A stretch of 64,000 nt of DNA from Planctomycetota bacterium (GCA_014240375.1 JAAZXB010000005.1:64297-128296), one strand, 5' to 3'. Shown: positions 8,971 to 44,140, counted from the first letter of the stretch. Notes: a model not told the origin generated them from the sequence alone. Made by a program: numbers and translations.

Positions 8971-10332
8971 CTACTTCAAGGCTTTCTGAAGGGACTTCTC
9001 CAGTTGCTCATAACTCTGATAGCCCGCTTCTCGGCCGACCACATTACCTTTGCGGTCGATGAAATAGACCGTGGGTAACCTCTTTAAATGATACTGTTGA
9101 AATCCAACTCCATCGCCCCGGATCAGCATTCTCTGCTGTAACTGGTTCTCCTGAACGAACTCCCGGATGCGGGTCCGGCCGTCATTGTCAGCATTTATTG
9201 CCAATACCTCGACATTTTTGCTCCTGAAGTCCTTCTGGATCTTGCTGAGGTGCGGAGACTCCGCACGACAGGCACCTCACGAATAACCCCAGAACGCCAC
9301 CATCAAGGTCTTCCCCTGGAAATCGGACAGGTTCACCATCTTCCCGTCGAGACCCTCAAGGGAGAAGTCGGGGGCTGGCTTCCCCATCATCTTCTTTGCT
9401 CGAACATCTGGATCGAGCGGTTGGGACGCGATCTTTTTGCTCGATTTGAGCAGAGAAGCGACCTCCTCCACGACTTCAGCCAGGGGGCCCTTCTTGTGGT
9501 CCTTCTGTCCCTTCTCGAACATCTTCTCCGCCATCTCGACCGCCGCCAGCGACATCCCCTTGCGCAGGACTCTCACCACCGGGGCGAGGAATTCATAGGC
9601 CTCTTCGACCTGCTGCGATTCCTCCTCCTCGATCAGTCCCGCTTCCAGTCTCTCGACTCGCAAGGTGCGCTCCTCGGAGGTGGCGTTCTCTTCATCGCCA
9701 CGCAGCAAGGTGGCTGCCCATTCCGCTCGCTTCAGCGATCCGCCGCCACTCAGGTACAATGTTTCCTTGAACGCACTCAGGCGCAACGCTCTGGCGCCTC
9801 CGCGGATCTGGATCTGGCCCCCGGCCAGCAGGCCCGTCAGGATCAGTTGCCCATCGTCGTCGATCGCTTCGGTTCGTTCGACCGAGATCTGCCTTCTCAA
9901 TCCGACCGGGGTGCCATCGGCCCAGCCCAGCCCAGCTCCCTCGGATCCCGCCCCGTGGACCGAGAGCAACATCTCCATCACTGCAGGGGAGAGGGGATCG
10001 AACAGTTCCGGTCTCGGTTTGCCGGAGCCGCGGATCATCATCGAACCGATGGGGAATCCGCCCGGATAGGTGCCATTGGAAGCGGTCGCACGCCAGACCC
10101 AGCGGTTTCCACCGGGTGCTGGGATCTGGAAGATGGTGACCTCGAATTCGAGGACCTCTTCTCCCCGGGTTCTCTCGACCTTCCAGACCGCTTTCGCCGA
10201 AGGATTCTGTTCCTCTTCATCATTGCCAGCCTGGGCCGGAAGGGAGGTGGGTTGGAGCAGAGACAGCATCAGGGATGCGAGTAACACGCTACCCAGATGA
10301 GTCTTGAGTCGATCAATTGTCATACAGATCAC
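8971..10332 (-). CDS. Secreted TlpA-like thiol:disulfide oxidoreductase selenoprotein candidate. In-frame UGA (9277..9279) gives a UxxC motif (FWGYS-U-GAC-RAE).
   Basis: ORFs 9277..10332 and 8971..9204 are in the same frame, separated only by a TGA. The joined sequence GKPAPDFSLEGLDGKMVNLSDFQGKTLMVAFWGYS[U]GACRAESPHL...VEVLAINADND...PTVYFIDRKGNVV is a complete TlpA domain. The TGA sits exactly at the first Cys of CxxC. Hairpin GTGCGGAG-A-CTCCGCAC at 9250..9266, 11 nt 3' of the UGA on the mRNA. N-terminal signal peptide. Confidence 0.7.
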
Positions 10333-22649: not shown

Positions 22650-23093
22650 ATGGGGCAACAAGTGGGCTCTCCTCTGGCGAAAAGGCTCTGCTGGCTGCTG
22701 GTGGTCGCCACTGTGACCTCGGGGTGGTCACCCGGCTGGGCCCAGCAGGGGATTCTCGATGGAGATCTCGATGGCGAGTCGGGGGTCCAGCGGATGAGAG
22801 ATGTGCAGATCGGTGGTTACTTTGATCTGGAACTCTTCATCGACTCGAATCGCTTCGATTTCCGTATCCATCCACGGGTGCCGCTGCTGGATGCCATGGT
22901 CACCGAGCATGTTCACTTCCCCTGCGAGATCGAGTTCGAGTACGGCGGACCGCCGATGGCGACCGTTGAAGGAGATGTCAAGGTCGAGTACGCCGATGTC
23001 GATCCGTTGCTGGATCGAGTTCCCGGGGCTACGGCCCTGATCCTGGTCGCAGGGGAAAAGAGCGCGCGCGGCTACCGGAAGTCAGGTCACTGA
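22650..23093 (+). CDS. Hypothetical secreted protein, translationally coupled to feoB
   Basis: Signal-like N-terminus LCWLLVVATVTSGWSPGWAQQ. Its stop overlaps the feoB start (TGATG). No recognisable family. Confidence 0.45.
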   Translation: MGQQVGSPLAKRLCWLLVVATVTSGWSPGWAQQGILDGDLDGESGVQRMRDVQIGGYFDLELFIDSNRFDFRIHPRVPLLDAMVTEHVHFPCEIEFEYGGPPMATVEGDVKVEYADVDPLLDRVPGATALILVAGEKSARGYRKSGH

Positions 23094-25051
23094 TGGTCAG
23101 CGAATCCACCGATGCGCCGCTACACATCACACTTGTGGGGAATCCCAACGTCGGAAAGAGCACTCTTTTCAATGCTCTGGTGGGGGCCAATTCGAGAATT
23201 TCCAACTACCCAGGGATCACTGCGGATTCGGTGATCGGTGAGTTTTTCGGTGCCCAGCAATTACGCATCGTCACCGACTTGCCGGGAACCTATAGCCTCG
23301 AACTCAATCTTCCCGAGGCTCAACTGTGTCACCAGCACTTGAAATTCGATGTACCGCCGCAAAGCGAGCAACAGAATCTGATCATCGTGGTCATCGAAGC
23401 GGTGGGATTCCCGAGAAATTTTCAGCTTCTGGCACAGTTGATGGCACTGGGAGTTCCGATGGCTGTGGTGGTGACGAAAACTGCCGAGGCGCAACTTCGT
23501 GGTTACCAGATCCAGTTGCAGGCGTTGGAAGAGTCGCTGGGAATTCCGGTGGTCGAGGCTGCGGAGAAATCGGCGATGCGGACCCTCGATGTGGAAGCGC
23601 TGATCGCTGCCGCGCGGATTCCCACGCCGGTTCACCCAGACCAGGAATCGATCGAGCAGTGGAGTTCAGATCTGCTGGCGAAGACAAGTCTTCCGGTCCG
23701 TCCCGAGCAGGCTCGCAGAAGGCGAAGAAGAGATGATCGACTCGACCGTGTGCTGGTTCATCCCATCGCCGGTTCTGTTCTGTTCTTGCTGGCGATGATC
23801 TGCATGTTTGGATCGGTCTACTGGATGGCCCAGGTACCGATGGAGTGGATCGATGTGGCATTTGGAACCGTCGGGGGGTGGATCTCCACTTCGATGGAAG
23901 ATGGTCCGTTGCGTGGATTGCTGGTGGACGGAGTCATCGGTGGAATCTCGGGAACGATGGTCTTTCTGCCGCAAATCCTGCTGCTCTTCTTTCTCATCTC
24001 CTTGCTGGAAGAAACCGGGTACATGGCGCGAGCCGCATTCGTCGCCGATCGCTGGCTTCGGCCCTTCGGCTTGCCGGGACAGGCGTTCGTACCGCTCCTT
24101 TCGAGTCATGCCTGTGCGATTCCAGGAATCCTCTGTACCCGGCTGATCCCCGATCGAAGAGATCGGCTCGCCACCATCCTGGTGGCGCCGTTCCTCTCCT
24201 GTTCGGCGCGGTTACCGGTGTACATCTTGATGGTCGGGATCCTCGCCCCGACCAATCCACTGGTCGCGGGCTGCGTATTCGTCGGCTGCTACCTGCTCGG
24301 AGCTTTGGTGGCAGTGGGATCTGCGGGTCTGGTCCGCAAGACCCTGTTGACCGGACCCAGTCTGCCGATGGTGCTGGAACTACCACCGTACCGCTTGCCG
24401 TCGATCGGAGATGCCGCTCGCATCGCCATCGATCGAGGATGGACCTTCTTGAAGAATGCCGGCTCGGTGATCCTGCTGATCTGTATCGCCTTGTGGTGGC
24501 TCAGTGCTTATCCGACGACGCCAGAAGGTCCGGAGATCGAGGCACTTCGTGTCGCCGCAGAAGCCCACTCCGATCCGGGGGAGTCACAACGGTTGCTGGA
24601 CCAGGCGCAGTCTCTCCATCTGAGGGAGTCTGCGAGGGGATCCTACGCCGGACAACTGGGTCGCTGGATCGAGCCTGTTCTGGCCCCGATCGGTGCAGAC
24701 TGGCAACTGTCGGTGGCGATCCTGGCGAGTTTTGCTGCGAGAGAAGTGTTCGTCTCTTCACTCAATGTGATGGTGGGGGTCAGAGAAGAGGAGGCTGCAG
24801 CGAGTTCCATCGCTCGAATTCGAGCATCGACACGAGATGATGGATCGCCGTTGCTTCCTCCTGCGGCTGCTGGAGGACTGCTGGTCTTCTACATCCTGGC
24901 GATGCAGTGCTTGCCGACCCTGGTGGTGACCAGTCGTGAGGCGGGAGGGATCCGCTGGGCGTTGCTACAATTGATCTGGATGACATCTGTAGCGTGGATC
25001 CTCGGAGTGGTGGCACGTCAGTGGATGCTGGCCGCGGGATTTTCTGGATGA
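23093..25051 (+). CDS. feoB: Ferrous iron transport protein B
   Basis: 652 aa. N-terminal G-domain GNPNVGKSTLFNAL, then the polytopic membrane domain with the gate motifs of FeoB. TGA stop. Confidence 0.9.
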   Translation: MVSESTDAPLHITLVGNPNVGKSTLFNALVGANSRISNYPGITADSVIGEFFGAQQLRIVTDLPGTYSLELNLPEAQLCHQHLKFDVPPQSEQQNLIIVVIEAVGFPRNFQLLAQLMALGVPMAVVVTKTAEAQLRGYQIQLQALEESLGIPVVEAAEKSAMRTLDVEALIAAARIPTPVHPDQESIEQWSSDLLAKTSLPVRPEQARRRRRRDDRLDRVLVHPIAGSVLFLLAMICMFGSVYWMAQVPMEWIDVAFGTVGGWISTSMEDGPLRGLLVDGVIGGISGTMVFLPQILLLFFLISLLEETGYMARAAFVADRWLRPFGLPGQAFVPLLSSHACAIPGILCTRLIPDRRDRLATILVAPFLSCSARLPVYILMVGILAPTNPLVAGCVFVGCYLLGALVAVGSAGLVRKTLLTGPSLPMVLELPPYRLPSIGDAARIAIDRGWTFLKNAGSVILLICIALWWLSAYPTTPEGPEIEALRVAAEAHSDPGESQRLLDQAQSLHLRESARGSYAGQLGRWIEPVLAPIGADWQLSVAILASFAAREVFVSSLNVMVGVREEEAAASSIARIRASTRDDGSPLLPPAAAGGLLVFYILAMQCLPTLVVTSREAGGIRWALLQLIWMTSVAWILGVVARQWMLAAGFSG

Positions 25052-25194
25052 GCGATTTCCCCCTCTCCGATCCTCAGTTCTGGTGGGTGACGCTACTGGC
25101 CGTGGCAGCGGTGGTACTGCTGATCGTGAAACGAGTTCGTCAGTCGAACGATCAGGACCAGAACGGTTCTTGCGGTGGTTGTTCCACGAAATAG
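25048..25194 (+). CDS. FeoB-associated Cys-rich small membrane protein
   Basis: 48 aa. Start ATG overlaps the feoB stop (ATGA). Single TM helix (WWVTLLAVAAVVLLIV) followed by GSCGGCS. Matches the FeoB-associated Cys-rich peptide family. Confidence 0.6.
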   Translation: MSDFPLSDPQFWWVTLLAVAAVVLLIVKRVRQSNDQDQNGSCGGCSTK

Positions 25195-25291
25195 CCGCGG
25201 TTGGCGCTGGAACTCTATCCCATTCAATGTTTGGATGCCGAGGGTTCACTGCTCTGAATCGTTTCGGAAATCAAGTTAGGAGTCCTGTCCA

Positions 25292-26473
25292 ATGAAGATG
25301 ATTGCTACTCATGCATTTCTCTTGCTGAAGGTGACCATCCTCCTTTGCATCGCGCCGATCCACGGTTCCGCATCGACAGTGGTGATTCTCGACGATCCAG
25401 CTCCCGCGGTGGTTACCAAGGCACAGGAGACTGCCGCACGCAATGCGCTGGACAAGATGCAGAAGCGGATGGATGAGGCGTGGACCGAGTACCTGGCCCC
25501 GCTGCGAGAAGCGAAGACTGCCGAGGAACGAGATGCCATCGAATTGGATCCAGAAAAGGATCCGGGTGTGATGTTCCTGCCTGAATTGTTCAAGTTCAGC
25601 AGTGACCATCCGGGGACTGCTGCGTGTCTCGAAGCTCTTTCTCAGGTGATCTCGATGGCCTCGCGAGATGAAAAGAACCGCTGGATGCTCAAGCAGGTGG
25701 TCGATCGGATCATCCTCGAATACATCGAGCATGAAGAACTCAAGGATCTGGTGCGCTTTGGTCATTACAACCCACCTTCTCCAGAAAACTTGTCATTGCT
25801 GAGAGCGGCTGCCGACCGATCTCCTCACCGAACCGTTCAGGGCTCTGCTTTCTATGCTCTTGGAAAACTGCTCGGATCTTCAGAAGAGACGAGAGCCGAG
25901 GGGAAGCAACTCCTCCAACGGGTCCAGAAGGAGTATGCGGATGTGCCATTTTTTCGGGAGACCACCTATGGCGAGAAGGTCGCAGGAGATCTGTTTGAAC
26001 TGGATCATCTGCAGGTCGGGCAAGTGGCGCCAGAGATCATCGGTACCGGACTCGATGGGGATCTGATGCAACTCTCCGCGTTTCGCGGCAAGGTGGTACT
26101 GCTCGATTTCTGGGGTGATTGGTGAGGCCCTTGCCGGGCGATGTACCCACACGAGCGGTCGCTCGTGAAGAAACACTCCGCGGATCAATTTGCCATCGTC
26201 GGGGTCAACTCGGAGAATACCATCGAAGCTGCTCGCGAAGCGGTGAAGAAAAACAAGCTGACCTGGAAGAACTTCTACGATGGGGGTGGGGCCAACCCCA
26301 CCTCTGGTCCCATCGCCACTCGCTGGAATGTCAGCGGCTGGCCCACCACCTATCTTCTCGATGAAAATGGCGTGATTCGCTACAAGGATGTCCGAGGTGA
26401 AACTCTCGACGCAGCACTCGAGACTCTGATCGATCAGTGGAAGGCGGCCCGGGAGGCGGAGGCGAAACTCTAG
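25292..26473 (+). CDS. Secreted TlpA-like thiol:disulfide oxidoreductase selenoprotein candidate. In-frame UGA (26123..26125) gives a UxxC motif (FWGDW-U-GPC-RAM).
   Basis: ORFs 25292..26125 and 26141..26473 share a frame across a single TGA. The joined sequence FRGKVVLLDFWGDW[U]GPCRAMYPHERSLVKKHSADQFAIVGVNSE...WPTTYLLDENGVIRYK is a textbook TlpA/ResA domain with TGA at the first Cys. Hairpin ACGAGCG-gt-CGCTCGT at 26151..26166, 26 nt 3' of the UGA. Signal peptide MKMIATHAFLLLKVTILLCIAPIHGSAS. TAG stop. Confidence 0.7.
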
Positions 26474-26561
26474 CGATCACTCAGGCGAGTTCGTCGTCGA
26501 TCGAGGAGCGTTGTGCCCTATGGGACAACGATTCGATCGAGCCCCCTGACCCGGATGGAGT

Positions 26562-26604
26562 GGGGAGGGAGCAGCCGGTTCCGGCTGTTTCCTCCCCTTT
26601 CTTC
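26562..26604 (+). terminator. Candidate rho-independent terminator after the 25292..26473 gene
   Basis: Nested GC stem GGGGAGGGAGCAGCCGG-tt-CCGGCTGTTTCCTCCCC followed by TTTCTTCG. Confidence 0.45.
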
Positions 26605-27103
26605 GAATCGGAGCCCACCCACAGTTCCTCGAAACCAGCGATTCCTCAAGACCAGCGATCGAACCGAGGGACAGACGCAGCAGCAGCAGGCTGCCGCCTA
26701 GCATCCACCCTAGCGGAGTCCGCGAATCGCTGGCGTTTCATGCTGAAGCCACCAGGGGGCGAACCGGGTCAGCAGCAGGGAACCGTATCCGAGCAATGAC
26801 AGCGTGATCTTTGGACCTTCGCTCCACGGAGTCCGTTCGATTCGATGCAGGAGCACGAAGAGCAGTAGTGCGAGTGAGATGCTGGGGTCGTGGATGCTGG
26901 GGTCGTGGATGATGGCGAGCATCTACTGCGGTGAATCCACCGGAGCGTCCCGAATACTGAAGAAGTGCCACGAATCCACCGAGCAGGACCGTCAGCAAGA
27001 ACAGGGTCAGGAGTACTTGCGTCGATGGATTGACCCTGGCCAGGGTCAAGCGGGCTTGCTTGTAGAATCGAGTCACTGGACCGGTGCGCCCGTGAGATTG
27101 AAG

Positions 27104-30112: not shown

Positions 30113-31182
30113 TCGATTCTTCATCGTTACTGAGGATCGAGCAATTGAGCCATCGCTTCGGCGACAAGGTGGCGATCGATCACGTCGACTGGAAACTCGA
30201 CCAGTGCGGAGTAGTGGGGCTGGTCGGTCCCAACGGTGCCGGTAAGACCACCCTCTTCTCGCTGATCGCCGGGTTCCTTCGCGTGCAAGGGGGCTCGATT
30301 GAAGTGCTGGGAGGTGCCGCTCCGGGATCTCGATCGCTGGTCAGCCGGGTCGCGGTGATGCCGCAGGATGCCATCTTCGCCCGCGATGTCTCGATCGTCG
30401 ATCAGATGCTGTTTCTCCGAGCGCTCGATGGGGTGACCGGGACCATCGCTCGCCAGGAGGTGGTTGCAGCGCTCGAGAGCGTCGGGCTCGCCGACCAACT
30501 GGATCGAGGTGCGGCGGTTCTCTCTCATGGGATGGGAAAAAGACTCGGTGTGGCTCAGGCGATCCTCGGGTCACCAGAACTGATTCTACTCGATGAGCCG
30601 ACCGCCGGGCTCGACCCTGCCAATGCGCTGCAGGTGCGTGATTTGATTCGAAGTCTCGGAAAAAAAGCGCTGGTCATCGTTTCATCCCACAATCTGCTGG
30701 AGTTGCAGGATCTGATCGACGAGGTGGCGGTGATCGTCGCTGGAAGGATGGTCGCCAGTGGCCCGATCGACGAGGTGACAGGTTCCGCTCGCAGGTTCGA
30801 ACTGCGGCTGGGTCGGGTGATCTCCCCCGGGGAATTGCAACAGATCCGCGATGAGGAACTGGTGCGCGGAGTCAGCCAGGATGGGACTCAACTGACGGTG
30901 GATCTCGATGCCAGTGCCGATGGGGGTCTCGATGCGGCGCTGGATCAACTTCTCCATCGATTACTGAAACTGGCAGCCCCTCCTCGTCAATTGAGAGAGG
31001 GCGCGAGTCTCGAGGAAGCGTATCTGAGATTGACAGGCGAGTCGGAGCAGGAAGCCGCGCCGCTCGATGATCGAACTGAAGATGATCGAACTGAAGATGA
31101 TCGAACTGAAGATGATCGAACTGAAGATGATCCAGATGAGTCCGATGCTCCGGCAGCAGCAAAAACTAGCGACGATCGGTAG
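30109..31182 (+). CDS. ABC transporter ATP-binding protein with a C-terminal (DDRTE)x4 acidic repeat
   Basis: Walker A GPNGAGKTT, Q-loop, signature LSHGMGKRL, Walker B LILLDEPTAGLD, H-loop SSHNL. In-frame 15-bp tandem repeat at about 31066-31130. Confidence 0.85.
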   Translation: MIDSSSLLRIEQLSHRFGDKVAIDHVDWKLDQCGVVGLVGPNGAGKTTLFSLIAGFLRVQGGSIEVLGGAAPGSRSLVSRVAVMPQDAIFARDVSIVDQMLFLRALDGVTGTIARQEVVAALESVGLADQLDRGAAVLSHGMGKRLGVAQAILGSPELILLDEPTAGLDPANALQVRDLIRSLGKKALVIVSSHNLLELQDLIDEVAVIVAGRMVASGPIDEVTGSARRFELRLGRVISPGELQQIRDEELVRGVSQDGTQLTVDLDASADGGLDAALDQLLHRLLKLAAPPRQLREGASLEEAYLRLTGESEQEAAPLDDRTEDDRTEDDRTEDDRTEDDPDESDAPAAAKTSDDR

Positions 31183-33136
31183 TGCCCGCGGGGGGTGGTG
31201 AGTTCTGTTCGCTGAGCTGAGCACGCTGGCGAAACGAGGTCGCTTCCTCGGAGATCCCGGCCTGGTCGAGCAGGTCGGCGATGTTTCGCAGCAATTCCGG
31301 TTCCTCGCCGATCCAGCCGACCAACGCCTGCAGGTGACGTGCCGCCGCTTCCGCTTGTCCTCTTTGAAATGCTGAAAGGGCCTGACGGCGGGCCAGGTCA
31401 CCTCTCAAATTCACCAGTGCGAGACGGTTCCCGAGTCGTTCTCGCTGACTGTCGAGCCACCGGGCCAGTGCCTGTGGCCCCTCTTGCAACTCCACGAGTT
31501 GACCGTAGCGAACCAGCAGGTCATCGCTGCTCTTTTCCTCCAGTGCCAGTCTCCACCACGAACTTGCACCGATGAGGTCACCACTGACCGCACTCATGTA
31601 GCCCAATTTTTCTTCGAGGATGGTCCCTGGTGGTTCCAGCAGGGCGAAGCCACCGCGCGAGAAGTGGCGGCAGCGCTGCAGATGCTGCACTGCTAGAGCT
31701 GCCGACTCCTTCAACTGCGGTGAGATCGGCGGCTGGCCTGGAATCAGCACCTGATCGAGATTGACCTGGGCTTCGTTGAAGTGCCGGTCGGCCTGCACTT
31801 CATTCCAGCGAGTGTGGCCCGCCGACAAGGTCAGCAGGATGCTCGAGATGGTGATCGCCAGCAGGATCAAACCGGGTGTGGTGATGGCGCCCGTTCGTCG
31901 CAATTGCTGCCCTTGAAGTGAAACATCCTGGCGGCGCAGAAATTGAAGACTCTTCCAGATCAGGAACGAGACGCTGATGGCGATGCCGGTGGCCATCAGC
32001 ATCGGGATCTGATCGTAGACTCCGCGCCAACTGAACCAGATCAGTGCACAGAGGATGGCGAGGCTCACCTCTCCCTGCAGTGAAAGGTGCGTATTGCGGG
32101 TCGGCGCGATGGCTTTGGCCAGAGGATTCCAGGCGCCCTTCCCGAAGGAGAGCACTCCGTTGGGACACACATCGACGCAATCGAGACACTTCATGCAGCC
32201 CGGATCGACCACCTGGGAGTGAATCTTGATCTCCCGTGAGATCTGAACATTGGAGGTGCAGTTGGCGGTGCACAGTCCGCACGATTCACACGCATCCATG
32301 TTGGCCACGATGGCCATCGGAGAGATCCGATCCGCCACCGAGAAGAAGGCGCCATAGGGACATCCGTAAGTGCAGAACCCCTTCGATCCGAGCAGGTAGA
32401 CGGTGGCGAAGCCACACACCAGGAAGAACGGGATGGCGATCCACCAGGAGGGGAAGGTGGCCCAGAAATCGGCGACCATCAGGTGATCGGTGAATCCAAC
32501 CCACGGGCGAACGGGATCGATCCAACTCGCCACCGTTGCGAACTGACCCTCGAACCAGGGCAGACCCCACCGCTTGAGGGTGGGCCACAGGAACATGTAG
32601 AAGGCGAGCAGAAACGGTACCCAGCCGAGCAGTCGAGAACGAAACGGTTGCGGGCGAATACCGATCTTTCTCATCATCCAGCCGCAGAGATCCTGTAGAG
32701 CCACCATGTGGCAAGCCCAGCCGCAGAACCAGCGTCCCAGGAGAGCAGTGGAGAGGATCGCCACGATGAAGAAGATGAAACCCGCATTCACCTGACCATT
32801 CTCGAGGGTGTACATCGACTCCGATGGCTCGACCGGGGAGAGGGTGGTGCCGGTGATGACCCAGTGCAGCAGGTGAAGTCCGATGAGCAGGTGGACGGCA
32901 CCGAGAGCGATCGCTCGACGGCGACCCGATCGGCCAGGGGATCGAGCAGCAGGCCTTCTGTATCCCTCGCACCCCTCACGTGGTTTACCCGTTCTGGCCA
33001 AACTGTCCTCCGTCGACGAGATCATAGCCTCCCGAGCGCTGCGTGAGAACTGCACCGATCGGATCGTGGCGATCCGCCCTGGAAGGGGAATCGAACCGTT
33101 CAAAAAAGGTGGCCGGGTCGATCCCGACCCGGCCAC
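31166..33136 (-). CDS. Polyferredoxin-type 4Fe-4S membrane protein (NapH/MauN/CcoG-like) with a C-terminal helical-repeat extension
   Basis: TM helices, CGWAC motif (RWFCGWACHMVALQD), and two ferredoxin Cys clusters (CESCGLCTANC, CMKCLDCVDVCP). 3' end overlaps the convergent ABC ATPase by 17 nt. Confidence 0.65.
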   Translation of the reverse strand: MAGSGSTRPPFLNGSIPLPGRIATIRSVQFSRSAREAMISSTEDSLARTGKPREGCEGYRRPAARSPGRSGRRRAIALGAVHLLIGLHLLHWVITGTTLSPVEPSESMYTLENGQVNAGFIFFIVAILSTALLGRWFCGWACHMVALQDLCGWMMRKIGIRPQPFRSRLLGWVPFLLAFYMFLWPTLKRWGLPWFEGQFATVASWIDPVRPWVGFTDHLMVADFWATFPSWWIAIPFFLVCGFATVYLLGSKGFCTYGCPYGAFFSVADRISPMAIVANMDACESCGLCTANCTSNVQISREIKIHSQVVDPGCMKCLDCVDVCPNGVLSFGKGAWNPLAKAIAPTRNTHLSLQGEVSLAILCALIWFSWRGVYDQIPMLMATGIAISVSFLIWKSLQFLRRQDVSLQGQQLRRTGAITTPGLILLAITISSILLTLSAGHTRWNEVQADRHFNEAQVNLDQVLIPGQPPISPQLKESAALAVQHLQRCRHFSRGGFALLEPPGTILEEKLGYMSAVSGDLIGASSWWRLALEEKSSDDLLVRYGQLVELQEGPQALARWLDSQRERLGNRLALVNLRGDLARRQALSAFQRGQAEAAARHLQALVGWIGEEPELLRNIADLLDQAGISEEATSFRQRAQLSEQNSPPPAGTTDRR

Positions 33137-33173: not shown

Positions 33174-34130
33174 CTAGTGATCGGGTACTCCGTCGCCGTC
33201 GTGATCGTGACCGTCGGTGGCATCATGGTCGATGCCATGGATCGCATCTTCGATCATCTTGCGACCGCGCTCGTTGTCCTTGACCTCCGGGCTCTTCAAC
33301 ATCCGGTTGAGGAACAGCTTGGCGCCATCCTTGTCTCCTTGCTCAGCCAGCCAGCCCTGGCAGAACCACAGTGCATTGAGCACCTCGGGGCCGCCCATTT
33401 CTGAATTGTCCTTGAGGAACTGCACCAGTGTCGGGAAGTCAGGATCCTGGGTATTGAGCAATTTCAACAGCTGTCCACGAGCCCGATGAGAAGCGGCCTT
33501 CTTGACCAGTTCCGGGTTGTCGGACTTCTCCGCCATATCGAGGAACTTACCGAAGGCGGGAAACCCGAGCAGGCCCTGATCCGCCATCACTTCGAATGCG
33601 TCCGGCAGCATATCACCCTGTTGAGCCTCATCTTCGGTGGCGAGCAACGCCTTGATCTTGTCGCCCTTGGCACGCAATTCGACGATGTGCTCGAGGTATT
33701 TTTCTGGCCCGCCCGGCTGATACCCTGTCTTGGCATAGGGGCGCATCTGGTGATCTGCCAGGATGATGGTGGGGAATCCGTCCACTCCCATCTCATCGCG
33801 GCTTTTTCCATTGAGCATTTCATCCACGACCTTGGCCTTCGCCTCTTCGCTGCGAGGGAAGTCGAGGTACAGGTAGATGTACTGCTTACCGGCGGTTTCA
33901 TGGAACGCTGGCAGTGAGAACACCTCGCCCTCGAGTTTCTTGCACCAACCACACCAGTCACTTCCGGTGAAGTTGATGAGGATGTCCTTACCCTCTTTAC
34001 GAGCCATTTCCTTGGCGGCACCGATATCCATCATCCAGGGGAGTCCTACCTCGGCCGCAACAGTCTCGGGTTCGTCACCGAGGGCCAGCGGAGAGCAGGC
34101 CAGGAAAGCCGTCAGAAAAATCATCGACAT
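33174..34130 (-). CDS. Thioredoxin-family lipoprotein (WCGWC active site)
   Basis: GGAGA Shine-Dalgarno sequence then ATG at 34130. Lipobox-like MSMIFLTAFLACSPL. Thioredoxin motif KDILINFTGSDWCGWCKKLEGEVF. Immediately upstream of, and co-oriented with, the polyferredoxin. Confidence 0.7.
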   Translation of the reverse strand: MSMIFLTAFLACSPLALGDEPETVAAEVGLPWMMDIGAAKEMARKEGKDILINFTGSDWCGWCKKLEGEVFSLPAFHETAGKQYIYLYLDFPRSEEAKAKVVDEMLNGKSRDEMGVDGFPTIILADHQMRPYAKTGYQPGGPEKYLEHIVELRAKGDKIKALLATEDEAQQGDMLPDAFEVMADQGLLGFPAFGKFLDMAEKSDNPELVKKAASHRARGQLLKLLNTQDPDFPTLVQFLKDNSEMGGPEVLNALWFCQGWLAEQGDKDGAKLFLNRMLKSPEVKDNERGRKMIEDAIHGIDHDATDGHDHDGDGVPDH

Positions 34131-34396
34131 CGAAAGTCTCCTTGCAGCGGAGCCACCATCGGTGCTCCGGGTAACGGGTCGTGTTGAAGTGGTCAGAATA
34201 CCCGATGGAGAACAGATCCGAAAGACGATGAAGAGCGTTGGAGAGGCGCTGCAGGCCATTTTTAGGGGGAAGGGGGTGACCTCGAGGACCATCTCGCCGA
34301 TGATCTGGCCACCGCAGCCTGCGGTGGCCGCGATCGACGGTTGCCGGCGCAAGATGGTCCACTGCAGGAACGGTTTGGGGCGGGGGGGAGTTCAAG

Positions 34397-38418: not shown

Positions 38419-39849
38419 ATGAAGTGCAACCGACTTTTTTCCAGAGGTGTTTCGAAGCGATCCGCCATCCAGTGCGGCGGCAGCCATCTACAACGGCTAC
38501 CGAGATGGCTGACCCTGCTCCTGGTCTCGCTGACAATGCTGTTGGTCTGGGGTCATCCCGGGACAGTGGAGGCACAGTTCTTTGAACGGGCGCTGGTGCT
38601 GGAAGGGGTGCATATCCCCGGTCCCGACGGAGGGGTGCTGGAAGATTCCAACATCATTCTGAGGGGCGGACGGATTGTCGAACTGGGACCCGATTCAGAC
38701 GCTCCCATGATGTCGAAAAAGCTCAAGGTGAAGGGACTCTTCGCCACCGCCGGACTGACCGATCTGTCCTCCACCCTGACCCTGGATGAGGTCCGCTCGA
38801 GCAGTGCGATTCACAGTGCCTGGGATGGTTTCGATCGATACGATTCTCAGCAGATTCTGCGCACCCTGGCCAGCGGCGTGACCAAGATCCACCTGATACC
38901 GATGGGACCTAGTGGCATCGTTGGACGAGTCAGTTCTCTGTCCCTCGGCAGTCGTGAAGAGGGCGGATACGGCATCTTGCACAGTGAAGATGTTGCGCTC
39001 TGCATCGACCTGAGCAGTGGCACACCCCTCGAGCGGATCCGCACCTATGAGAAGGTTCGTGGTGCCTTGAAGTCGGCGCAGAAGATGCGCGAGTCGTTGG
39101 ACGATTACACCTCTGATCTGGAGGAGTACATCGAAGATCTGGCGGAAGCCGCCAAGAAGAAGGCACAGGAGAAGGCCGAGGAGAAGGACAAAGAAAAAGA
39201 CGACAAGGACGACAAGGACGACAAGGCCGAGGACGGGGACGAGAAGGACGAGAAGGACGAGGAGGGCCCCAAGAAGCCGGATCGGCTGGAACGAGACCCC
39301 GCAGCGGAGATTTTGCTGCAAGTTCTCGATCACGAACTGCCGGTGATGATCACCGCACGTCGCAGCGCAGATCTGCAAAATGCCATCGATCTGATCGAGG
39401 AGTTTCAACTTTCGGCCATCCTTCGTGGTGCCGATGAAGCTCACCTGGTACTCGAGGCGCTGGCAAAACTGGAAAAAGTCTCGCTGTTGCTCGAGGTACC
39501 GCGCTCCTCGCTGACGCGCGGTGCGGGCCCCCGCAGAGATCCTCATCTGATCGCACAACTGGACGAAGAGGGAATTTCCTGGGCGGTGGGAAGCGGCGGC
39601 GAAAGTACTTCGCTGTGGCGGTCGATCCAGCAACTCTCTGGACAACTGTCGACAGCGTCTCCTCTGCCATTGGCTCTCGCTCAGGGAGCCCAGGGCCCCT
39701 TCGGAGGATGGCTGAGAAGAGGCGCAACAGAGGTGGTTCTGTGGGAGGGGAATCCAGCGGAGGACCCGCTGGCCCGACCCAATCGAGTCATCATCAACGG
39801 GACGGTGGTCTGGCAACGACCCTCCGGTACCCGTGAGGGGAGTTTCTGA
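38419..39849 (+). CDS. Amidohydrolase-fold protein 1 of a tandem array (secreted). No HxH motif. Contains a K/D/E-rich insert.
   Basis: AAGGAAA Shine-Dalgarno sequence then ATG at 38419. Signal-like LTLLLVSLTMLLVWGHPGTVEA. Insert EKDKEKDDKDDKDDKAEDGDEKDEKDEEG encoded by GACAAGGAC repeats. C-terminal amidohydrolase-family tail. Confidence 0.55.
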   Translation: MKCNRLFSRGVSKRSAIQCGGSHLQRLPRWLTLLLVSLTMLLVWGHPGTVEAQFFERALVLEGVHIPGPDGGVLEDSNIILRGGRIVELGPDSDAPMMSKKLKVKGLFATAGLTDLSSTLTLDEVRSSSAIHSAWDGFDRYDSQQILRTLASGVTKIHLIPMGPSGIVGRVSSLSLGSREEGGYGILHSEDVALCIDLSSGTPLERIRTYEKVRGALKSAQKMRESLDDYTSDLEEYIEDLAEAAKKKAQEKAEEKDKEKDDKDDKDDKAEDGDEKDEKDEEGPKKPDRLERDPAAEILLQVLDHELPVMITARRSADLQNAIDLIEEFQLSAILRGADEAHLVLEALAKLEKVSLLLEVPRSSLTRGAGPRRDPHLIAQLDEEGISWAVGSGGESTSLWRSIQQLSGQLSTASPLPLALAQGAQGPFGGWLRRGATEVVLWEGNPAEDPLARPNRVIINGTVVWQRPSGTREGSF

Positions 39850-40979
39850 TGAAGAGTGGTAACCGATGGTGGCTGTGGATACTGACCGGATGGATCGGTT
39901 GGTGCACGACGGTCGAGGGATCCGAGAACAGCGTGGTCATCCGCCCGGTCGCAGTGGTGGCTCCCGACGGTAGCATCTGCGAGCAGATGGCGGTGGTGAT
40001 TCACTCCGATGGGACCATCGCTGCGGTGATCCCGGCGGACCAGGCAGACCCGGCACTGACCACGGTCCACGCTGCGGCGGGATCGGTGCTCACCCCGGGG
40101 CTCCATGACCTGTTTGGAGCCCTCGGTTGTGGCCAGGACGCCTTGCTGGCGGGGACGGTCCTGTTCGATTCTCAACTCGATGCGGCGGCTGCCTTCGATC
40201 CGACCACTGGCGCACTCGAACGGGCTGCACGGCACGGGATTCTATACACCACGGTGGCGGCAGTGCCGAGCGGGATCCGCAATGGCAGCAGTGCCACATT
40301 CCTCTGCAAGAGTGATGCTACGGCTCACCCGGTGGCGGCTGGAAGACCGATGTACGCACTGGCCGATTCGGTCCTGCAGTCATCGAGAGAGCCGACCAGT
40401 CGATCGGCGATGGTCTCGTTGTGGAAGGACTTTATCGTCGAGGGAGCGGGCCAGAACAGGGATCCAGGAGTTCTCTTCTGCCCCGATGCGATCGATTTTC
40501 GCCAGTCCCTCTCTCTGCGCTGGAAATCCTTGCCGGTGCTGGTCCACCAGGGGGACGCACGATCTCCGGTGGAGCGGCTCGCCGGAAAAGGTGCGCTGAT
40601 GGTGGTGGGCCCCTTTCTCGAGGACGGCAATCCGGCAGCGGTCGCGACTGCAGTGCGGGCGGCGCGAACCGGAACTGAACTGGCCTTTCGCGGTGGCTTA
40701 CCCGCCGCTCCTGCAAACCACCTGAGAGGGAGTGCAGCCATCGCCGTGGCGGCTGGACTCGATGGAGATGCGGCGCGTAGAGCCCTCTTCAGCAACCCCG
40801 CGCGGGTGGTGGTGGGCCACGGCATCGGAGTGATCGAGCCGGGGGCTCGTGCCGACCTGGTGCTGTTTTCCGCCGATCCGCTCGATCCGGCTGCCCGGGT
40901 GCTCCAGGTCTGGCGCGGTGGCCAGCAGCTGGGGATGAATACTTTCGACTCGATCCGGGATCTGGGAGGAATTCGATGA
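39849..40979 (+). CDS. Amidohydrolase-fold protein 2 of the array (PGLHDLFGALG in place of the HxH motif)
   Basis: N-terminal beta-sandwich-like segment then TPGLHD. C-terminal GARADLVLFSADPLDPAARVLQVWRGG. Start overlaps the previous stop. Confidence 0.55.
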   Translation: MKSGNRWWLWILTGWIGWCTTVEGSENSVVIRPVAVVAPDGSICEQMAVVIHSDGTIAAVIPADQADPALTTVHAAAGSVLTPGLHDLFGALGCGQDALLAGTVLFDSQLDAAAAFDPTTGALERAARHGILYTTVAAVPSGIRNGSSATFLCKSDATAHPVAAGRPMYALADSVLQSSREPTSRSAMVSLWKDFIVEGAGQNRDPGVLFCPDAIDFRQSLSLRWKSLPVLVHQGDARSPVERLAGKGALMVVGPFLEDGNPAAVATAVRAARTGTELAFRGGLPAAPANHLRGSAAIAVAAGLDGDAARRALFSNPARVVVGHGIGVIEPGARADLVLFSADPLDPAARVLQVWRGGQQLGMNTFDSIRDLGGIR

Positions 40980-42565
40980 AACAGCAACCGATGAATCCGT
41001 CACCGATGATGACTTCTCTGGTGCGATGTACAGTGTGGCTCGCCATCGCATGGGGGTCGGCAATCCTCGCTCCGGCAGCAGTGCTGGCAGCGGCGGGAGA
41101 AGACACGGCCACACCCGCAGAGGTTCTCCGGGATGTGACGATCCGTGCGCAGCGGGCTCATATCGGCGATGGCCGGGTCCTCGAGAATGCTCTGATCCAG
41201 GTCAAGGATGGCATCATCGTGAGTGTCGTGGCCAATGGCACCGCTGCCGAGGGTGTCAACCTGCTGGAAGTTTCCGACATCACTCCGGGATTGATCGATG
41301 CGAACGCCAGGATCGACGTCGCCGATGCGATCTACTTTCCGGGAGAGGATCCGCGTTTGCAAATCCTCCGGGCGATGGGACTCGAAGAGCACTTTCACGG
41401 TGGCGATGTCTGTCCCTGCGGTACTACCTGTCCTGCCATGACTCTTCATGTTGCCGATGAGATGTGTCTGTACTGTGGCTGGCCCGATCACGACCCTCAC
41501 CCACACGATCCGATCGACGAATTGCTCGCTGGATCGCTCGCTGGATCGCTCGGTGGCGACCAGGCTGCAGGTGTCCCGGCGCCCAGTGGAGTCATCAACG
41601 AGCAATCGAGTGAGGTGGTCCCACACTTCGAGGTACTCGATGCCATCGATCAGGGATCCGATGATTTTGATCGCCTGCTCAAAGAGGGAGTGACCACCAT
41701 CTACGTCAGCCCCGATTCCTCGGCGGTGGTCGGTGCGCGAGGATCGCTGATGAAGACTGGTGGCCCACTCGCCTCCAGATATCTCGGTGCCGGAGCGGTG
41801 AAGGGGGTTCTCGGGAGCGACGCCTACCGCTATGGGAGTCGCAATCGCAGTCCCTTCCGTACCAATGTTTCGGTCTACACCAGAAGACCTGATTCTCGCA
41901 TGGGTGTGGCGTGGGTCTTCAGGAAGGCGTTTCACGATGCGCTCCTGAGAGCCAAAGGGGTCACTCCCAGCGGTGCGGATACTTCCAGTCCGAGTGCTTC
42001 CCGTGTTCTTTCGAGTGTGCTGGCGGGGGAGATCCCGTTGCGAATCCAGGCTCGTACCGGTCCCGATATCGAGACGGCATTTCGTCTCTGTGGAGAGTTC
42101 GGTGTCCGCTTCACCCTGGAAGATCCGGTCGAGGCGTGGAAGCGGATCGACCTGCTTTCCAGCAGTGGAGTGGACGTGGTCTTCGGGCCGGTGTTTGACG
42201 TACCCAGCGGCATCCTTGCGGGAACCAACGAGAGCCGCGAATCGAGACTCCACACCTTGCGAGATCTGGTCACTTCCGGAGTCGAGGTGTCGTTGAGCGC
42301 CCAGGATTTGAGGGGTGAAGAGGGTCTTTCCCGTCAGGTGATGCTGGCGATCCGACACGGAGTCGATCCGGCGATGGCGTTGAGACTGGTCACACAAAAC
42401 CCGGCCAAACTGCTCGGGATCGATCAGCAGGTTGGAACGATTGAAACGGGTAAGAGAGCGGATCTGGTGGTGTGGAGTGGAACTCCCTTCTCCTCCCTTT
42501 CGAGAATCGAAAAGGTATTGCATGAGGGAGAGTTTTCCTTTGTCCGAGGTGGAGTCAAAAAATGA
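40976..42565 (+). CDS. Amidohydrolase-fold protein 3 of the array, with a Cys/His-rich insert
   Basis: Signal peptide. TPGLIDANARIDV. Insert CPCGTTCPAMTLHVADEMCLYCGWPDHDPHPHD. C-terminal GKRADLVVWSGTPF. 4-nt overlap with the previous gene. Confidence 0.6.
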   Translation: MKQQPMNPSPMMTSLVRCTVWLAIAWGSAILAPAAVLAAAGEDTATPAEVLRDVTIRAQRAHIGDGRVLENALIQVKDGIIVSVVANGTAAEGVNLLEVSDITPGLIDANARIDVADAIYFPGEDPRLQILRAMGLEEHFHGGDVCPCGTTCPAMTLHVADEMCLYCGWPDHDPHPHDPIDELLAGSLAGSLGGDQAAGVPAPSGVINEQSSEVVPHFEVLDAIDQGSDDFDRLLKEGVTTIYVSPDSSAVVGARGSLMKTGGPLASRYLGAGAVKGVLGSDAYRYGSRNRSPFRTNVSVYTRRPDSRMGVAWVFRKAFHDALLRAKGVTPSGADTSSPSASRVLSSVLAGEIPLRIQARTGPDIETAFRLCGEFGVRFTLEDPVEAWKRIDLLSSSGVDVVFGPVFDVPSGILAGTNESRESRLHTLRDLVTSGVEVSLSAQDLRGEEGLSRQVMLAIRHGVDPAMALRLVTQNPAKLLGIDQQVGTIETGKRADLVVWSGTPFSSLSRIEKVLHEGEFSFVRGGVKK

Positions 42566-44139: not shown

Positions 44140-44140
44140 G

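What the first reader, a model, noticed from the sequence alone, without database searches (positions are those of the whole stretch)
25292..26473. Second UxxC selenoprotein candidate: secreted TlpA-family protein with FWGDW-U-GPCR and a downstream hairpin
ORFs 25292..26125 and 26141..26473 are in frame across a single TGA (26123..26125). Read-through gives VVLLDFWGDW[U]GPCRAMYPHERSLVKKHSADQFAIVGVNSE...WPTTYLLDENGVIRYKDV, a near-canonical TlpA signature (FWASWCGPCR...P...Y..D..G.I).

Hairpin ACGAGCG/CGCUCGU lies at 26151..26166. The upstream roughly 270 aa is a signal-peptide-bearing helical domain. This is an independent occurrence of the same recoding event seen at 9277, 16 kb away.
Basis: partly seen in the sequence, partly recalled or inferred. 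Interest (0 to 1): 0.8.

Follow-up and report, generated by a model that had tools for sequence, protein, structure and literature searches.

The report
Selenocysteine TlpA-like reductase gene beside feoB
The two ORFs are one gene for an exported thioredoxin-fold reductase whose active-site residue is selenocysteine, encoded by UGA plus a conserved RNA hairpin; this is a real but already familiar kind of bacterial selenoprotein that annotation pipelines routinely cut in two.

Summary
ORF 25292..26125 and the frame continuing to 26473 are one 393-codon gene with a single in-frame TGA (26123..26125). The TGA sits at the first position of a UxxC redox motif inside a ResA/TlpA-like thioredoxin domain.

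- The same TGA occurs in 57 distinct sequences from independent assemblies.
- 142 of the 150 best cluster representatives in a 1.8-billion-protein library end exactly at FWGxW.
- The TGA column aligns with Cys in full-length homologues.
- dN/dS downstream of the TGA (0.08-0.19) matches upstream (0.10-0.18).
- TGA is the normal stop for 16 of 30 other genes in the window, so the code is not reassigned.

A hairpin, CACGAGC-GGUC-GCUCGUG (26150..26167), meets every criterion of the published bacterial SECIS model. It is fixed at synonymous sites in TGA forms (CGG 49/49, TCG 52/52, CTC 53/54) and decays in Cys forms.

The N-terminal part is a signal peptide plus a HEAT/TPR-like helical domain with no family assignment. 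In this clade the gene always follows feoB inside an iron-homeostasis cluster.

UxxC Prx-like/TlpA-like selenoproteins have been catalogued since 2004-2008, so this is a new member of a known kind. Sec machinery in the same genome could not be checked.

The parts
25278..25282 (+). Shine-Dalgarno-like AGGAG, 9 nt before the ATG
   Evidence: Read directly from the sequence.
25292..26473 (+). Complete recoded coding sequence: 393 codons including Sec278, ending in TAG
   Evidence: Translation shows a single internal stop. The same architecture is present in all related loci. dN/dS downstream of the TGA is 0.08-0.19.
25292..25372 (+). N-terminal signal peptide or membrane anchor (about residues 1-27, MKMIATHAFLLLKVTILLCIAPIHGSAS)
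   Evidence: By inspection: a basic n-region, a hydrophobic core and small residues (GSA). Homologues share the pattern. AlphaFold2 gives helix 5-19 followed by a low-confidence linker. No signal-peptide predictor was available.
25418..26008 (+). All-alpha helical-repeat domain (residues 43-239), no Pfam or NCBIfam family
26012..26404 (+). ResA/TlpA/CcmG-like thioredoxin-fold domain (residues 241-371)
   Evidence: Pfam Redoxin scores 62.4 bits (cut-off 26.6) and AhpC-TSA 60 bits. phmmer against the PDB gives ResA 4nmu at 6e-15, DsbE 3gl3 and TlpA 1jfu. The model of Cys homologue P0025 matches ResA-type structures with TM 0.8-0.89.
26123..26125 (+). UGA codon 278, read as selenocysteine (first residue of U-G-P-C)
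   Evidence: TGA is present in 57 of 57 distinct related sequences. It aligns with Cys in homologues. 142 of 150 library representatives end at the preceding residue.
26132..26134 (+). TGC, resolving Cys281 of the UxxC motif
   Evidence: Invariant column C281 in alignment A1. Codons used are TGC 49 and TGT 6.
26150..26167 (+). Bacterial SECIS hairpin CACGAGC-GGUC-GCUCGUG (loop at 26157..26160) lying inside codons His-Glu-Arg-Ser-Leu-Val
   Evidence: -10.5 kcal/mol, z = -3.97. 93.7% of cells are paired across 57 sequences, against 30-41% for both helices counted together when the partners are slid by 1-3 columns. There is one G-C to A-U compensatory change and three wobble changes. Synonymous sites are fixed. 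The hairpin is absent from Cys forms.
26342..26344 (+). CCC, Pro351 of the conserved W-P-T cis-proline loop of the thioredoxin fold
   Evidence: W350 and P351 are invariant in alignment A1.
26562..26597 (+). Terminator-like hairpin (16 pairs, then TTTCTTC) about 90 nt after the stop codon
   Evidence: Consensus scan only.
23093..25194 (+). Upstream same-strand genes: feoB (23093..25051) and a small FeoB-associated membrane ORF ending ..GSCGGCSTK (25048..25194)
   Evidence: Pfam FeoB_N, Gate and FeoB_C. The small ORF is 92% identical to the one in L002. The feoB - small ORF - this gene order is conserved in L001-L011 and L015, and feoB also lies upstream on the same strand in L016.

Best explanation
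This is one gene for an exported, selenocysteine-containing thiol-disulfide oxidoreductase.

Steps supported by sequence evidence:
- The UGA at codon 278 is translated, not used as a stop.
- It occupies the nucleophilic position of a U-G-P-C redox motif in a ResA/TlpA/CcmG-type thioredoxin fold.
- An RNA hairpin 24 nt downstream, with apical loop GGUC starting 31 nt after the UGA, is under selection as RNA and only in UGA-bearing genes.

Steps inferred from what is known of bacterial Sec decoding and of TlpA-like reductases:
- SelB carrying Sec-tRNA(Sec) binds the hairpin and delivers Sec to the ribosome paused at UGA.
- The signal peptide takes the protein to the periplasm.
- Sec278 attacks a substrate disulfide or an oxidised thiol, the selenenylsulfide is resolved by Cys281, and the enzyme is re-reduced by a CcdA/DsbD-type membrane electron carrier encoded elsewhere.
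- The rigidly attached N-terminal helical-repeat domain docks the substrate or partner.

Because this orthologue group is always placed directly after feoB in a feoB/feoA/DtxR-like/ferritin cluster, its most likely job is reductive chemistry in the periplasm that supports ferrous-iron uptake. That last step is the weakest.
For: Recoding:
- TGA is at the identical site in the window and 14 related loci, with 108-115 further in-frame codons in the nine distinct loci whose contig covers the whole gene; L012-L014 run off their contigs after 11-92 codons.
- 48 of 82 catalytic motif sites found in 80 genome loci have TGA.
- 15 listed homologues, and 142 of the 150 best representatives at 50% clustering, end at FWGxW.
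- The X column aligns with Cys in P0015, P0025 and others.
- dN/dS is 0.08-0.19 downstream against 0.10-0.18 upstream.
- TGA ends 16 of 30 Pfam-supported ORFs in the window.

SECIS:
- The hairpin meets all four criteria of the bSECIS model quoted in PMC13188914: a 4-nt loop starting GG, a 7-bp stem, 31-nt spacing and -10.5 kcal/mol.
- Codon entropy for H-E-R-S-L is 0-0.38 bit, against 1.0-2.4 bit for other four- and six-fold codons.
- L053 keeps the pairing through G-C to A-U at the cost of a Leu-to-Phe change.
- The 16-mer core occurs only 28 nt after a TGA (after a TGG in L098), including in extra paralogues in L022 and L046.
- Cys forms encoding the same or a similar peptide use other codons. 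L097 has CGC..CTA and folds at only -4.5 kcal/mol. L095, L096, L037 and L071-L073 lack the hairpin.

Fold:
- Pfam hits, PDB relatives ResA, DsbE, TlpA and Etrx2, and an invariant cis-Pro.

Context:
- Conserved Feo/DtxR/ferritin synteny.
- Thioredoxin-like proteins in other iron-uptake clusters are discussed in PMC8238504.
- Planctomycetes with selA/B/C/D and thiol-disulfide isomerase-like Sec candidates are reported in PMC4807772.
Against: - No selA, selB, selD or tRNA-Sec is present in the 64-kb window or in any fetched flank. Sec competence of this organism is therefore inferred, not shown.
- The main hairpin is almost invariant, so true covariation is thin: one compensatory pair.
- No CcdA/DsbD-type partner is nearby.
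- The feoB adjacency holds only for the closest clade plus L016 and L030 (where feoB is about 3.4 kb away on the opposite strand), not for the wider Sec family.
- In the window lineage the neighbouring ApbE gene and the Aq_1264_TM gene are deleted or disrupted.
- One lineage (P0026/L098) has TGG at the Sec site with an intact hairpin.
Confidence: 0.9

Rival explanations
1. The TGA is a true stop. The locus is a split or decaying gene: a stand-alone secreted helical protein, followed by a truncated thioredoxin fragment that starts at the ATG at 26141 or is not expressed.
For: Every public annotation calls two ORFs. An ATG lies 15 nt after the TGA.
Against: - The five codons between the TGA and that ATG (G-P-C-R-A) are conserved as amino acids with free synonymous change.
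- The fragment would lack both the first beta-strand and the active site.
- The stop has been at the same codon in 57 distinct sequences down to about 30% identity, with dN/dS near 0.1 on both sides.
- A pseudogene would not hold a synonymous-site-fixed hairpin.
Confidence: 0.03
2. The UGA is read through without selenium, by near-cognate tRNA (Trp, Cys or Arg) or a local code change, and the hairpin merely stimulates read-through.
For: One lineage has TGG (Trp) at the site with the hairpin intact. The Sec machinery was not seen.
Against: - TGA is the commonest ordinary stop in the window, 16 of 30 ORFs.
- The position is the catalytic nucleophile and is Cys in every non-TGA homologue but one.
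- The hairpin matches the SelB-type bSECIS model in loop sequence and spacing.
- A second UxxC gene in the window has a different hairpin that fits the same bSECIS-model criteria.
Confidence: 0.04
3. The TGA is a sequencing or assembly error for TGC or TGG.
For: TGA is a single base away from TGC and TGG.
Against: The same TGA is present in independent assemblies from NCBI, JGI, ENA and Logan.
Confidence: 0.01
4. It is a real selenoprotein, but unrelated to iron. It would be a general periplasmic reductase (cytochrome c or copper-centre maturation, methionine sulfoxide or peroxide defence) that merely sits next to feoB.
For: - Most members of the wider Sec family are not next to feoB.
- The closest characterised relatives, ResA, CcmG, TlpA and Etrx, serve those other roles.
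- The window lineage has lost the neighbouring ApbE gene.
Against: The gene order feoB - small ORF - this gene - feoA - DtxR-like - ferritin is kept while FeoB identity falls to about 55%, and feoB is still adjacent in L016 at 40% identity to the query protein. Spacing is operon-like, with a terminator-like hairpin only after this gene.
Confidence: 0.45

Closest known systems
Prx-like / thiol-disulfide isomerase-like / redoxin-family UxxC selenoproteins. These are predicted families from Kryukov & Gladyshev 2004, the Sargasso Sea study PMC1088965, GOS 'Prx-like 1/3' in PMC2398784, and the table in review PMC13188914.
   Same: A thioredoxin fold hitting PF00578 and PF08534, Sec as the first residue of UxxC, abundant Cys homologues, a marine and metagenomic distribution, and a SECIS inside the coding region just after the UGA.
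   Different: This subfamily has a roughly 200-residue helical-repeat domain in front, a near-invariant FWGxW-U-[GP]PC[RV]AM.PHE[RK]SLV signature, and (in this clade) a fixed position in a Feo locus. None of this is mentioned in the passages of those papers retrieved by term search here. The published exemplar sequences could not be compared directly.
ResA, CcmG/DsbE and TlpA (extracytoplasmic thiol-disulfide reductases of Bacillus, proteobacteria and Bradyrhizobium)
   Same: The domain fold, the position of the redox motif after a hydrophobic strand ending in W, the cis-Pro loop, and N-terminal export or anchoring.
   Different: Those proteins use CxxC, are about 140-220 residues long and have no helical N-domain. 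NCBIfam scores are far below their cut-offs: ResA 67.7 against 170, DsbE 55.5 against 123, TlpA 53 against 230. This protein is therefore not an orthologue of any of them.
E. coli fdhF SECIS / SelB-dependent recoding
   Same: A hairpin within the ORF directly 3' of the UGA. From my own knowledge of the fdhF element, its apical loop is also GGUC, with G23/U24 contacting SelB.
   Different: The loop lies 13 nt further from the UGA (G36/U37), and no bulged U is evident. A subgroup with HEK instead of HER uses a hairpin shifted 3' with loop CGUGA.
Thioredoxin-like proteins encoded in P19/FTR1 iron-uptake clusters of Gram-negative bacteria (PMC8238504)
   Same: An exported thioredoxin-like protein encoded inside an iron-transport cluster. 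In relatives of this locus, a gene with ApbE and FMN-binding-domain Pfam hits is also present.
   Different: A different transporter (FeoB rather than FTR1/P19), Sec instead of Cys, and an extra helical domain. The role is undefined in both cases.

Membership tests
Bacterial selenoprotein gene (UGA recoded through a bSECIS) | In-frame UGA aligning with Cys in homologues | tested here: met
   Alignment A1 places X opposite the first Cys of CxxC. 34 TGC/TGT sites against 48 TGA sites at the same column.
Bacterial selenoprotein gene (UGA recoded through a bSECIS) | UGA conserved in orthologues from independent sources, with the downstream frame open and under purifying selection | tested here: met
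   57 distinct sequences. 142 of 150 representatives end at FWGxW. dN/dS is 0.08-0.19.
Bacterial selenoprotein gene (UGA recoded through a bSECIS) | [quoted passage not shown] | tested here: met
   Loop GGUC, 7 bp, 31 nt spacing, -10.5 kcal/mol.
Bacterial selenoprotein gene (UGA recoded through a bSECIS) | Hairpin selected as RNA and specific to the UGA forms | tested here: met
   Synonymous sites are fixed. There is a compensatory change in L053. Cys forms lack the hairpin.
Bacterial selenoprotein gene (UGA recoded through a bSECIS) | selA, selB, selC and selD present in the same genome | not testable with these tools
   None in the window or in about 1.5 Mb of fetched flanks. The rest of the genome is not available. 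The trait is documented in other Planctomycetes (PMC4807772).
Bacterial selenoprotein gene (UGA recoded through a bSECIS) | Selenium actually incorporated | not testable with these tools
   Needs 75Se labelling or mass spectrometry.
TlpA-like / ResA / CcmG extracytoplasmic thiol-disulfide oxidoreductases | Thioredoxin-fold domain recognised by Redoxin/AhpC-TSA/Thioredoxin_8 models above threshold | tested here: met
   62.4, 60.0 and 57.1 bits against cut-offs of 26.6, 26 and 27.
TlpA-like / ResA / CcmG extracytoplasmic thiol-disulfide oxidoreductases | Two-residue redox motif xxC after W, plus a cis-Pro loop | tested here: met
   W277-U-G-P-C281, with W350-P351 invariant. Sec replaces the first Cys.
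TlpA-like / ResA / CcmG extracytoplasmic thiol-disulfide oxidoreductases | Structural match to solved members | tested here: met
   phmmer gives ResA 4nmu at 6e-15 and TlpA 1jfu at 3e-10. The model of Cys homologue P0025 matches ResA, DsbE and Etrx2 with target-normalised TM 0.75-0.89, and TlpA with TM 0.62-0.65.
TlpA-like / ResA / CcmG extracytoplasmic thiol-disulfide oxidoreductases | Export signal or membrane anchor | tested here: inconclusive
   The N-terminus looks like a signal peptide here and in homologues, but no predictor was run.
TlpA-like / ResA / CcmG extracytoplasmic thiol-disulfide oxidoreductases | Orthology to a named member (NCBIfam equivalog or subfamily cut-off) | tested here: not met
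   All scores are far below the cut-offs. This is membership of the superfamily only.
Published UxxC Prx-like / redoxin-family selenoproteins | PF00578 or PF08534 domain with Sec in UxxC | tested here: met
   together with the family definitions in PMC13188914 and PMC2398784.
Published UxxC Prx-like / redoxin-family selenoproteins | Direct sequence similarity to the published exemplars (WP_010940744.1, HEU0032618.1, MGB1650493.1) | not tested

The most novel reading that the evidence does not exclude
The Feo-linked orthologues may form a selenium-dependent periplasmic redox module for ferrous-iron acquisition in marine Planctomycetota. In this reading a Sec-TlpA with a dedicated helical docking domain keeps iron, or an FeoB-associated component, reduced in oxic seawater, which would couple selenium supply to iron uptake. 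Separately, the helical-domain Sec-TlpA family appears to be very large (1764 representatives at E <= 1e-10) and almost entirely mis-annotated, so it may be one of the most abundant unrecognised selenoprotein subfamilies in PVC bacteria.
Probability: 0.25. Interest if true: 0.55.

Novelty: new member of a known kind. Interest (0 to 1): 0.35.

Why it matters
- It corrects an annotation error repeated across public data. Every related locus with called genes splits this gene in two or omits the 3' part, and 95% of the closest library representatives are truncated at the Sec codon.
- It gives a clean example of a SECIS embedded in coding sequence constraining the protein. The H-E-R-S-L-V peptide is held by RNA pairing, and in one lineage a Leu-to-Phe change is accepted to keep a base pair.
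- It gives a simple 16-nt marker (ACGAGCGGTCGCTCGT, 25 nt after a TGA) for finding this subfamily.
- The fixed position after feoB suggests a testable link between selenium and iron uptake in marine Planctomycetota.
- It does not change what is known about how Sec is decoded or about the kinds of proteins that use it.

Tried and rejected
- Rfam at gathering threshold and ARAGORN on the window found nothing.
- ARAGORN on 57 related loci found no tRNA-Sec.
This is a weak test.
- Folding the 63 nt after the UGA as a whole is not significant, z = -0.49. Only the isolated hairpin and its conservation are informative.
- A possible first hairpin, GGCCC..GGGCN right after the UGA, pairs in only 76% of cells and is lost in the P-P-C variants. 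I rejected it as a required element.
- The metagenome scan for Cys forms with the same peptide returned only two loci.
I modelled the 277-residue N-terminal ORF and a full-length Cys homologue instead.
- PDB fold searches of the N-domain gave only generic helical repeats.
- An IdeR/DtxR-box consensus search found nothing.
- A lipoprotein signal was rejected: no lipobox, and the Cys is not conserved.
- The cysteines of the small FeoB-associated ORF are unlikely substrates. By the positive-inside rule its C-terminal CGGC faces the cytoplasm (my inference).
- No third UxxC candidate was found.

Full report
**1. The observation**

An ATG at 25292 follows AGGAG at 25278..25282. The frame runs 277 codons to a TGA at 26123..26125, then stays open for 115 more codons to TAG at 26471..26473. 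The junction reads VVLLDFWGDW-TGA-GPCRAMYPHERSLV. With the TGA read through, Pfam Redoxin (62.4 bits), AhpC-TSA (60.0) and Thioredoxin_8 (57.1) match residues 241-371. The TGA therefore lies inside a thioredoxin-fold domain, not between two domains.

Its energy is -10.5 kcal/mol, and only 1 of 200 shuffles folds as well. The wider 63-nt stretch is not exceptional, z = -0.49.

A scan of all six frames for TGA-xx-Cys or Cys-xx-TGA flanked by long open frames found two convincing sites: this one and a minus-strand one at 9279.

**2. The stop codon is conserved**

A search of 5.8 billion proteins found that the closest homologues are all 269-300 residues long, with no Pfam domain. Their identity to the query ranges from 88% down to about 35%. 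More distant homologues (27-38%) are 370-660 residues long and carry thioredoxin-family domains. Fifteen of the short ones were retrieved, and every one ends ...DFWG[DNY]W.

I fetched their DNA as 14 loci from NCBI MAGs, JGI, ENA and Logan assemblies. Every one has TGA at that point. In the loci whose contig covers the whole gene, the frame continues for 108-115 codons of conserved thioredoxin-domain sequence to a TAA or TAG.

A scan of one genome per GTDB species returned 80 further loci. The catalytic motif was found at 82 sites; 48 have TGA and 34 have TGC or TGT. The TGA forms carry labels of Pirellulaceae, Gemmataceae, Phycisphaerae, Planctomycetaceae and Verrucomicrobiota. A few MAGs are labelled otherwise.

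An exhaustive phmmer search used the 277-residue N-terminal ORF against 1.84 billion cluster representatives. It gave 1764 hits at E <= 1e-10. Of the best 150, 142 end exactly at FWGxW. The truncation point is therefore a family property, and the Sec form dominates.

**3. The region after the TGA is translated, and TGA is not reassigned**

In an alignment of nine read-through sequences with 13 full-length homologues, the TGA column falls on the first Cys of CxxC. An example is DFWGDW-C-GPCRAMYPHERSLVK in P0015 and P0025. The second Cys and the W-P cis-proline loop are invariant.

Against seven relatives, dN/dS over the 52 codons after the TGA is 0.08-0.19. That is indistinguishable from 0.10-0.18 over the 60 codons before it.

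The five codons between the TGA and the next ATG vary freely at synonymous sites while keeping G-P-C-R-A. That excludes a separate downstream start.

TGA ends 16 of 30 Pfam-supported ORFs in the window, so there is no code change.

**4. The hairpin**

I examined 55 distinct TGA-form sequences.

| Codons | Usage | Codon entropy |
|---|---|---|
| +9 to +13 (His-Glu-Arg-Ser-Leu) | CAC 53/55, GAG 51/55, CGG 49/49, TCG 52/52, CTC 53/54 | 0-0.38 bit |
| Other Arg, Ser, Leu, Gly, Pro, Ala codons in the same alignment | varied | 1.0-2.4 bit |

- Across 57 sequences the stem is paired in 93.7% of cells. For the whole tested structure (both helices), 86.4% of cells pair, against 30-41% when the partners are slid by 1-3 columns.
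- Variation is small but compatible with pairing: two U-G pairs and one G-U pair.
- In L053 a G-C to A-U double change turns Leu into Phe.
- The first pair, C28-G45, is dispensable.
- The element meets all four criteria of the published bacterial SECIS model. It has a 4-nt loop beginning GG, a 7-bp stem, 31 nt between the UGA and the loop, and an energy below -7.5 kcal/mol.
- The 16-nt core occurs in 52 of 98 fetched loci, always 28 nt after a TGA (after TGG in L098). This includes second paralogues in L022 and L046.
- A subgroup encoding His-Glu-Lys lacks this hairpin. It has another one, shifted 3', with a 7-bp stem and loop CGUGA or CGUGC (-9.2 to -9.7 kcal/mol). One of its pairs appears as U-A, A-U, G-U and G-C in different members.

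Cys forms serve as the control.

| Locus | Site codon | Codons for the hairpin peptide | Hairpin |
|---|---|---|---|
| L097 (P0015) | TGT | CAC GAG CGC TCG CTA GTG (same peptide) | loop GCUC, mismatched stem, -4.5 kcal/mol |
| L095, L096, L037, L071-L073 | TGC/TGT | other codons | none |

The hairpin is thus tied to the UGA and not to the protein sequence.

**5. The protein**

Residues 1-27 look like a signal peptide, here and in homologues. No predictor was run, and no lipobox is present.

A full-length Cys homologue, P0025, models at pLDDT 93.9 and pTM 0.90. This implies the two domains pack rigidly. Its C-terminal domain superposes on ResA, DsbE and Etrx2 (TM 0.75-0.89 normalised to the target) and on TlpA (TM 0.62-0.65). 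By sequence the closest solved chains are ResA 4nmu (6e-15), DsbE 3gl3 and TlpA 1jfu.

No NCBIfam model reaches its cut-off. The protein belongs to the TlpA-like superfamily but is not an orthologue of any named member.

**6. Context**

The gene follows feoB (23093..25051) on the same strand. Between them is a small membrane ORF ending GSCGGCSTK (25048..25194), which overlaps feoB by 4 nt. A terminator-like hairpin sits about 90 nt after the stop codon.

Downstream lie a convergent Aq_1264_TM-like gene, feoA, a DtxR-like repressor gene and a ferritin gene.

The order DAO - THUMP-like - (hypothetical - ApbE/FMN_bind) - feoB - small ORF (called in most loci) - this gene - (Aq_1264_TM) - feoA - DtxR-like - ferritin is kept in at least eight lineages, while FeoB identity falls to 55%. 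feoB is also adjacent in L016 (40% identity to the query protein). In L030 feoB lies about 3.4 kb upstream on the opposite strand. It is not adjacent in the wider Sec family. No DsbD/CcdA-type gene was seen in the window.

An analogous but unexplained pairing has been noted before: thioredoxin-like or FMN-binding proteins encoded with P19/FTR1 iron transporters (PMC8238504).

**7. What is known**

UxxC Prx-like thiol:disulfide oxidoreductases, thiol-disulfide isomerase-like proteins and redoxin-family proteins are listed as predicted selenoprotein families. They are among the more abundant ones in marine metagenomes (PMC1088965, PMC2398784, PMC13188914).

Planctomycetes with complete selA/B/C/D sets and split thiol-disulfide isomerase-like Sec candidates have been reported (PMC4807772).

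The finding is therefore a new member of a known kind. The papers I searched by keyword did not mention three things:
- the helical N-domain;
- the near-invariant SECIS and signature peptide;
- the Feo linkage.

**8. Limits**

The Sec machinery of this organism was not observed. The iron-related role rests on gene order alone. The main hairpin shows conservation more than covariation.

Noticed in passing
window 8971..10332, minus strand (TGA at 9279..9277): A second UxxC selenoprotein candidate...MVAFWGYS-TGA-GACRAESPHL.... AhpC-TSA and Redoxin match across the TGA. A hairpin GUGCGGA-GUC-UCCGCAC begins 13 nt after the UGA. It has a different N-terminal region and a different SECIS sequence from the gene studied here.
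   Followed up: partly
L098 406..1593 (protein P0026): A homologue with TGG (Trp) at the Sec position (FWGDW-W-APC) that still has the intact 16-nt SECIS core. Its 90% cluster has 17 members. It could be a recent UGA-to-UGG change that inactivates the redox motif, or something not yet understood.
   Followed up: no
window 26480..27076, minus strand: The Aq_1264_TM-family gene that follows this gene in relatives is 53% identical here. It has an in-frame stop and an unrelated middle section, so it is a pseudogene or contains frameshift errors.
   Followed up: partly
window 22650..23093, plus strand: This 147-codon ORF joins the first 137 residues of the relatives' 392-residue hypothetical protein to the last 27 residues of their ApbE/FMN_bind protein. 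Most of both genes has been deleted in this lineage. L008 also lacks them.
   Followed up: partly
window 25048..25194, plus strand: A small ORF overlapping the feoB stop codon: one transmembrane helix, a basic stretch, then GSCGGCSTK. It is conserved after feoB in relatives and resembles FeoB-associated Cys-rich membrane proteins (my own knowledge). It was not scanned against Pfam.
   Followed up: partly
L013, L021, L023, L030, L049, L059 (about 33-53 nt after their TGA): Members encoding His-Glu-Lys instead of His-Glu-Arg replace the GGUC hairpin with one shifted 3' (loop CGUGA/CGUGC). One of its pairs shows four different pair types. Some His-Glu-Arg members with ...VKRL could form either hairpin.
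   Followed up: partly
L022 near 11811; L046 near 8134; L026 4094 and 5206: Several genomes carry two Sec-TlpA paralogues within a few kb, each with its own TGA and SECIS.
   Followed up: partly
window 39849..50851, plus strand: A run of seven consecutive or overlapping amidohydrolase-family ORFs (Amidohydro_1/3 hits), one of them 1000 residues long.
   Followed up: no
window 33174..34352, minus strand: A CxxC (WCGWC) Thioredoxin_7/DsbH-like protein beside a 656-residue 4Fe-4S protein (31166..33136). The pair is conserved in the same synteny block as the Feo cluster in all relatives. A functional link to the Sec-TlpA was not examined.
   Followed up: no
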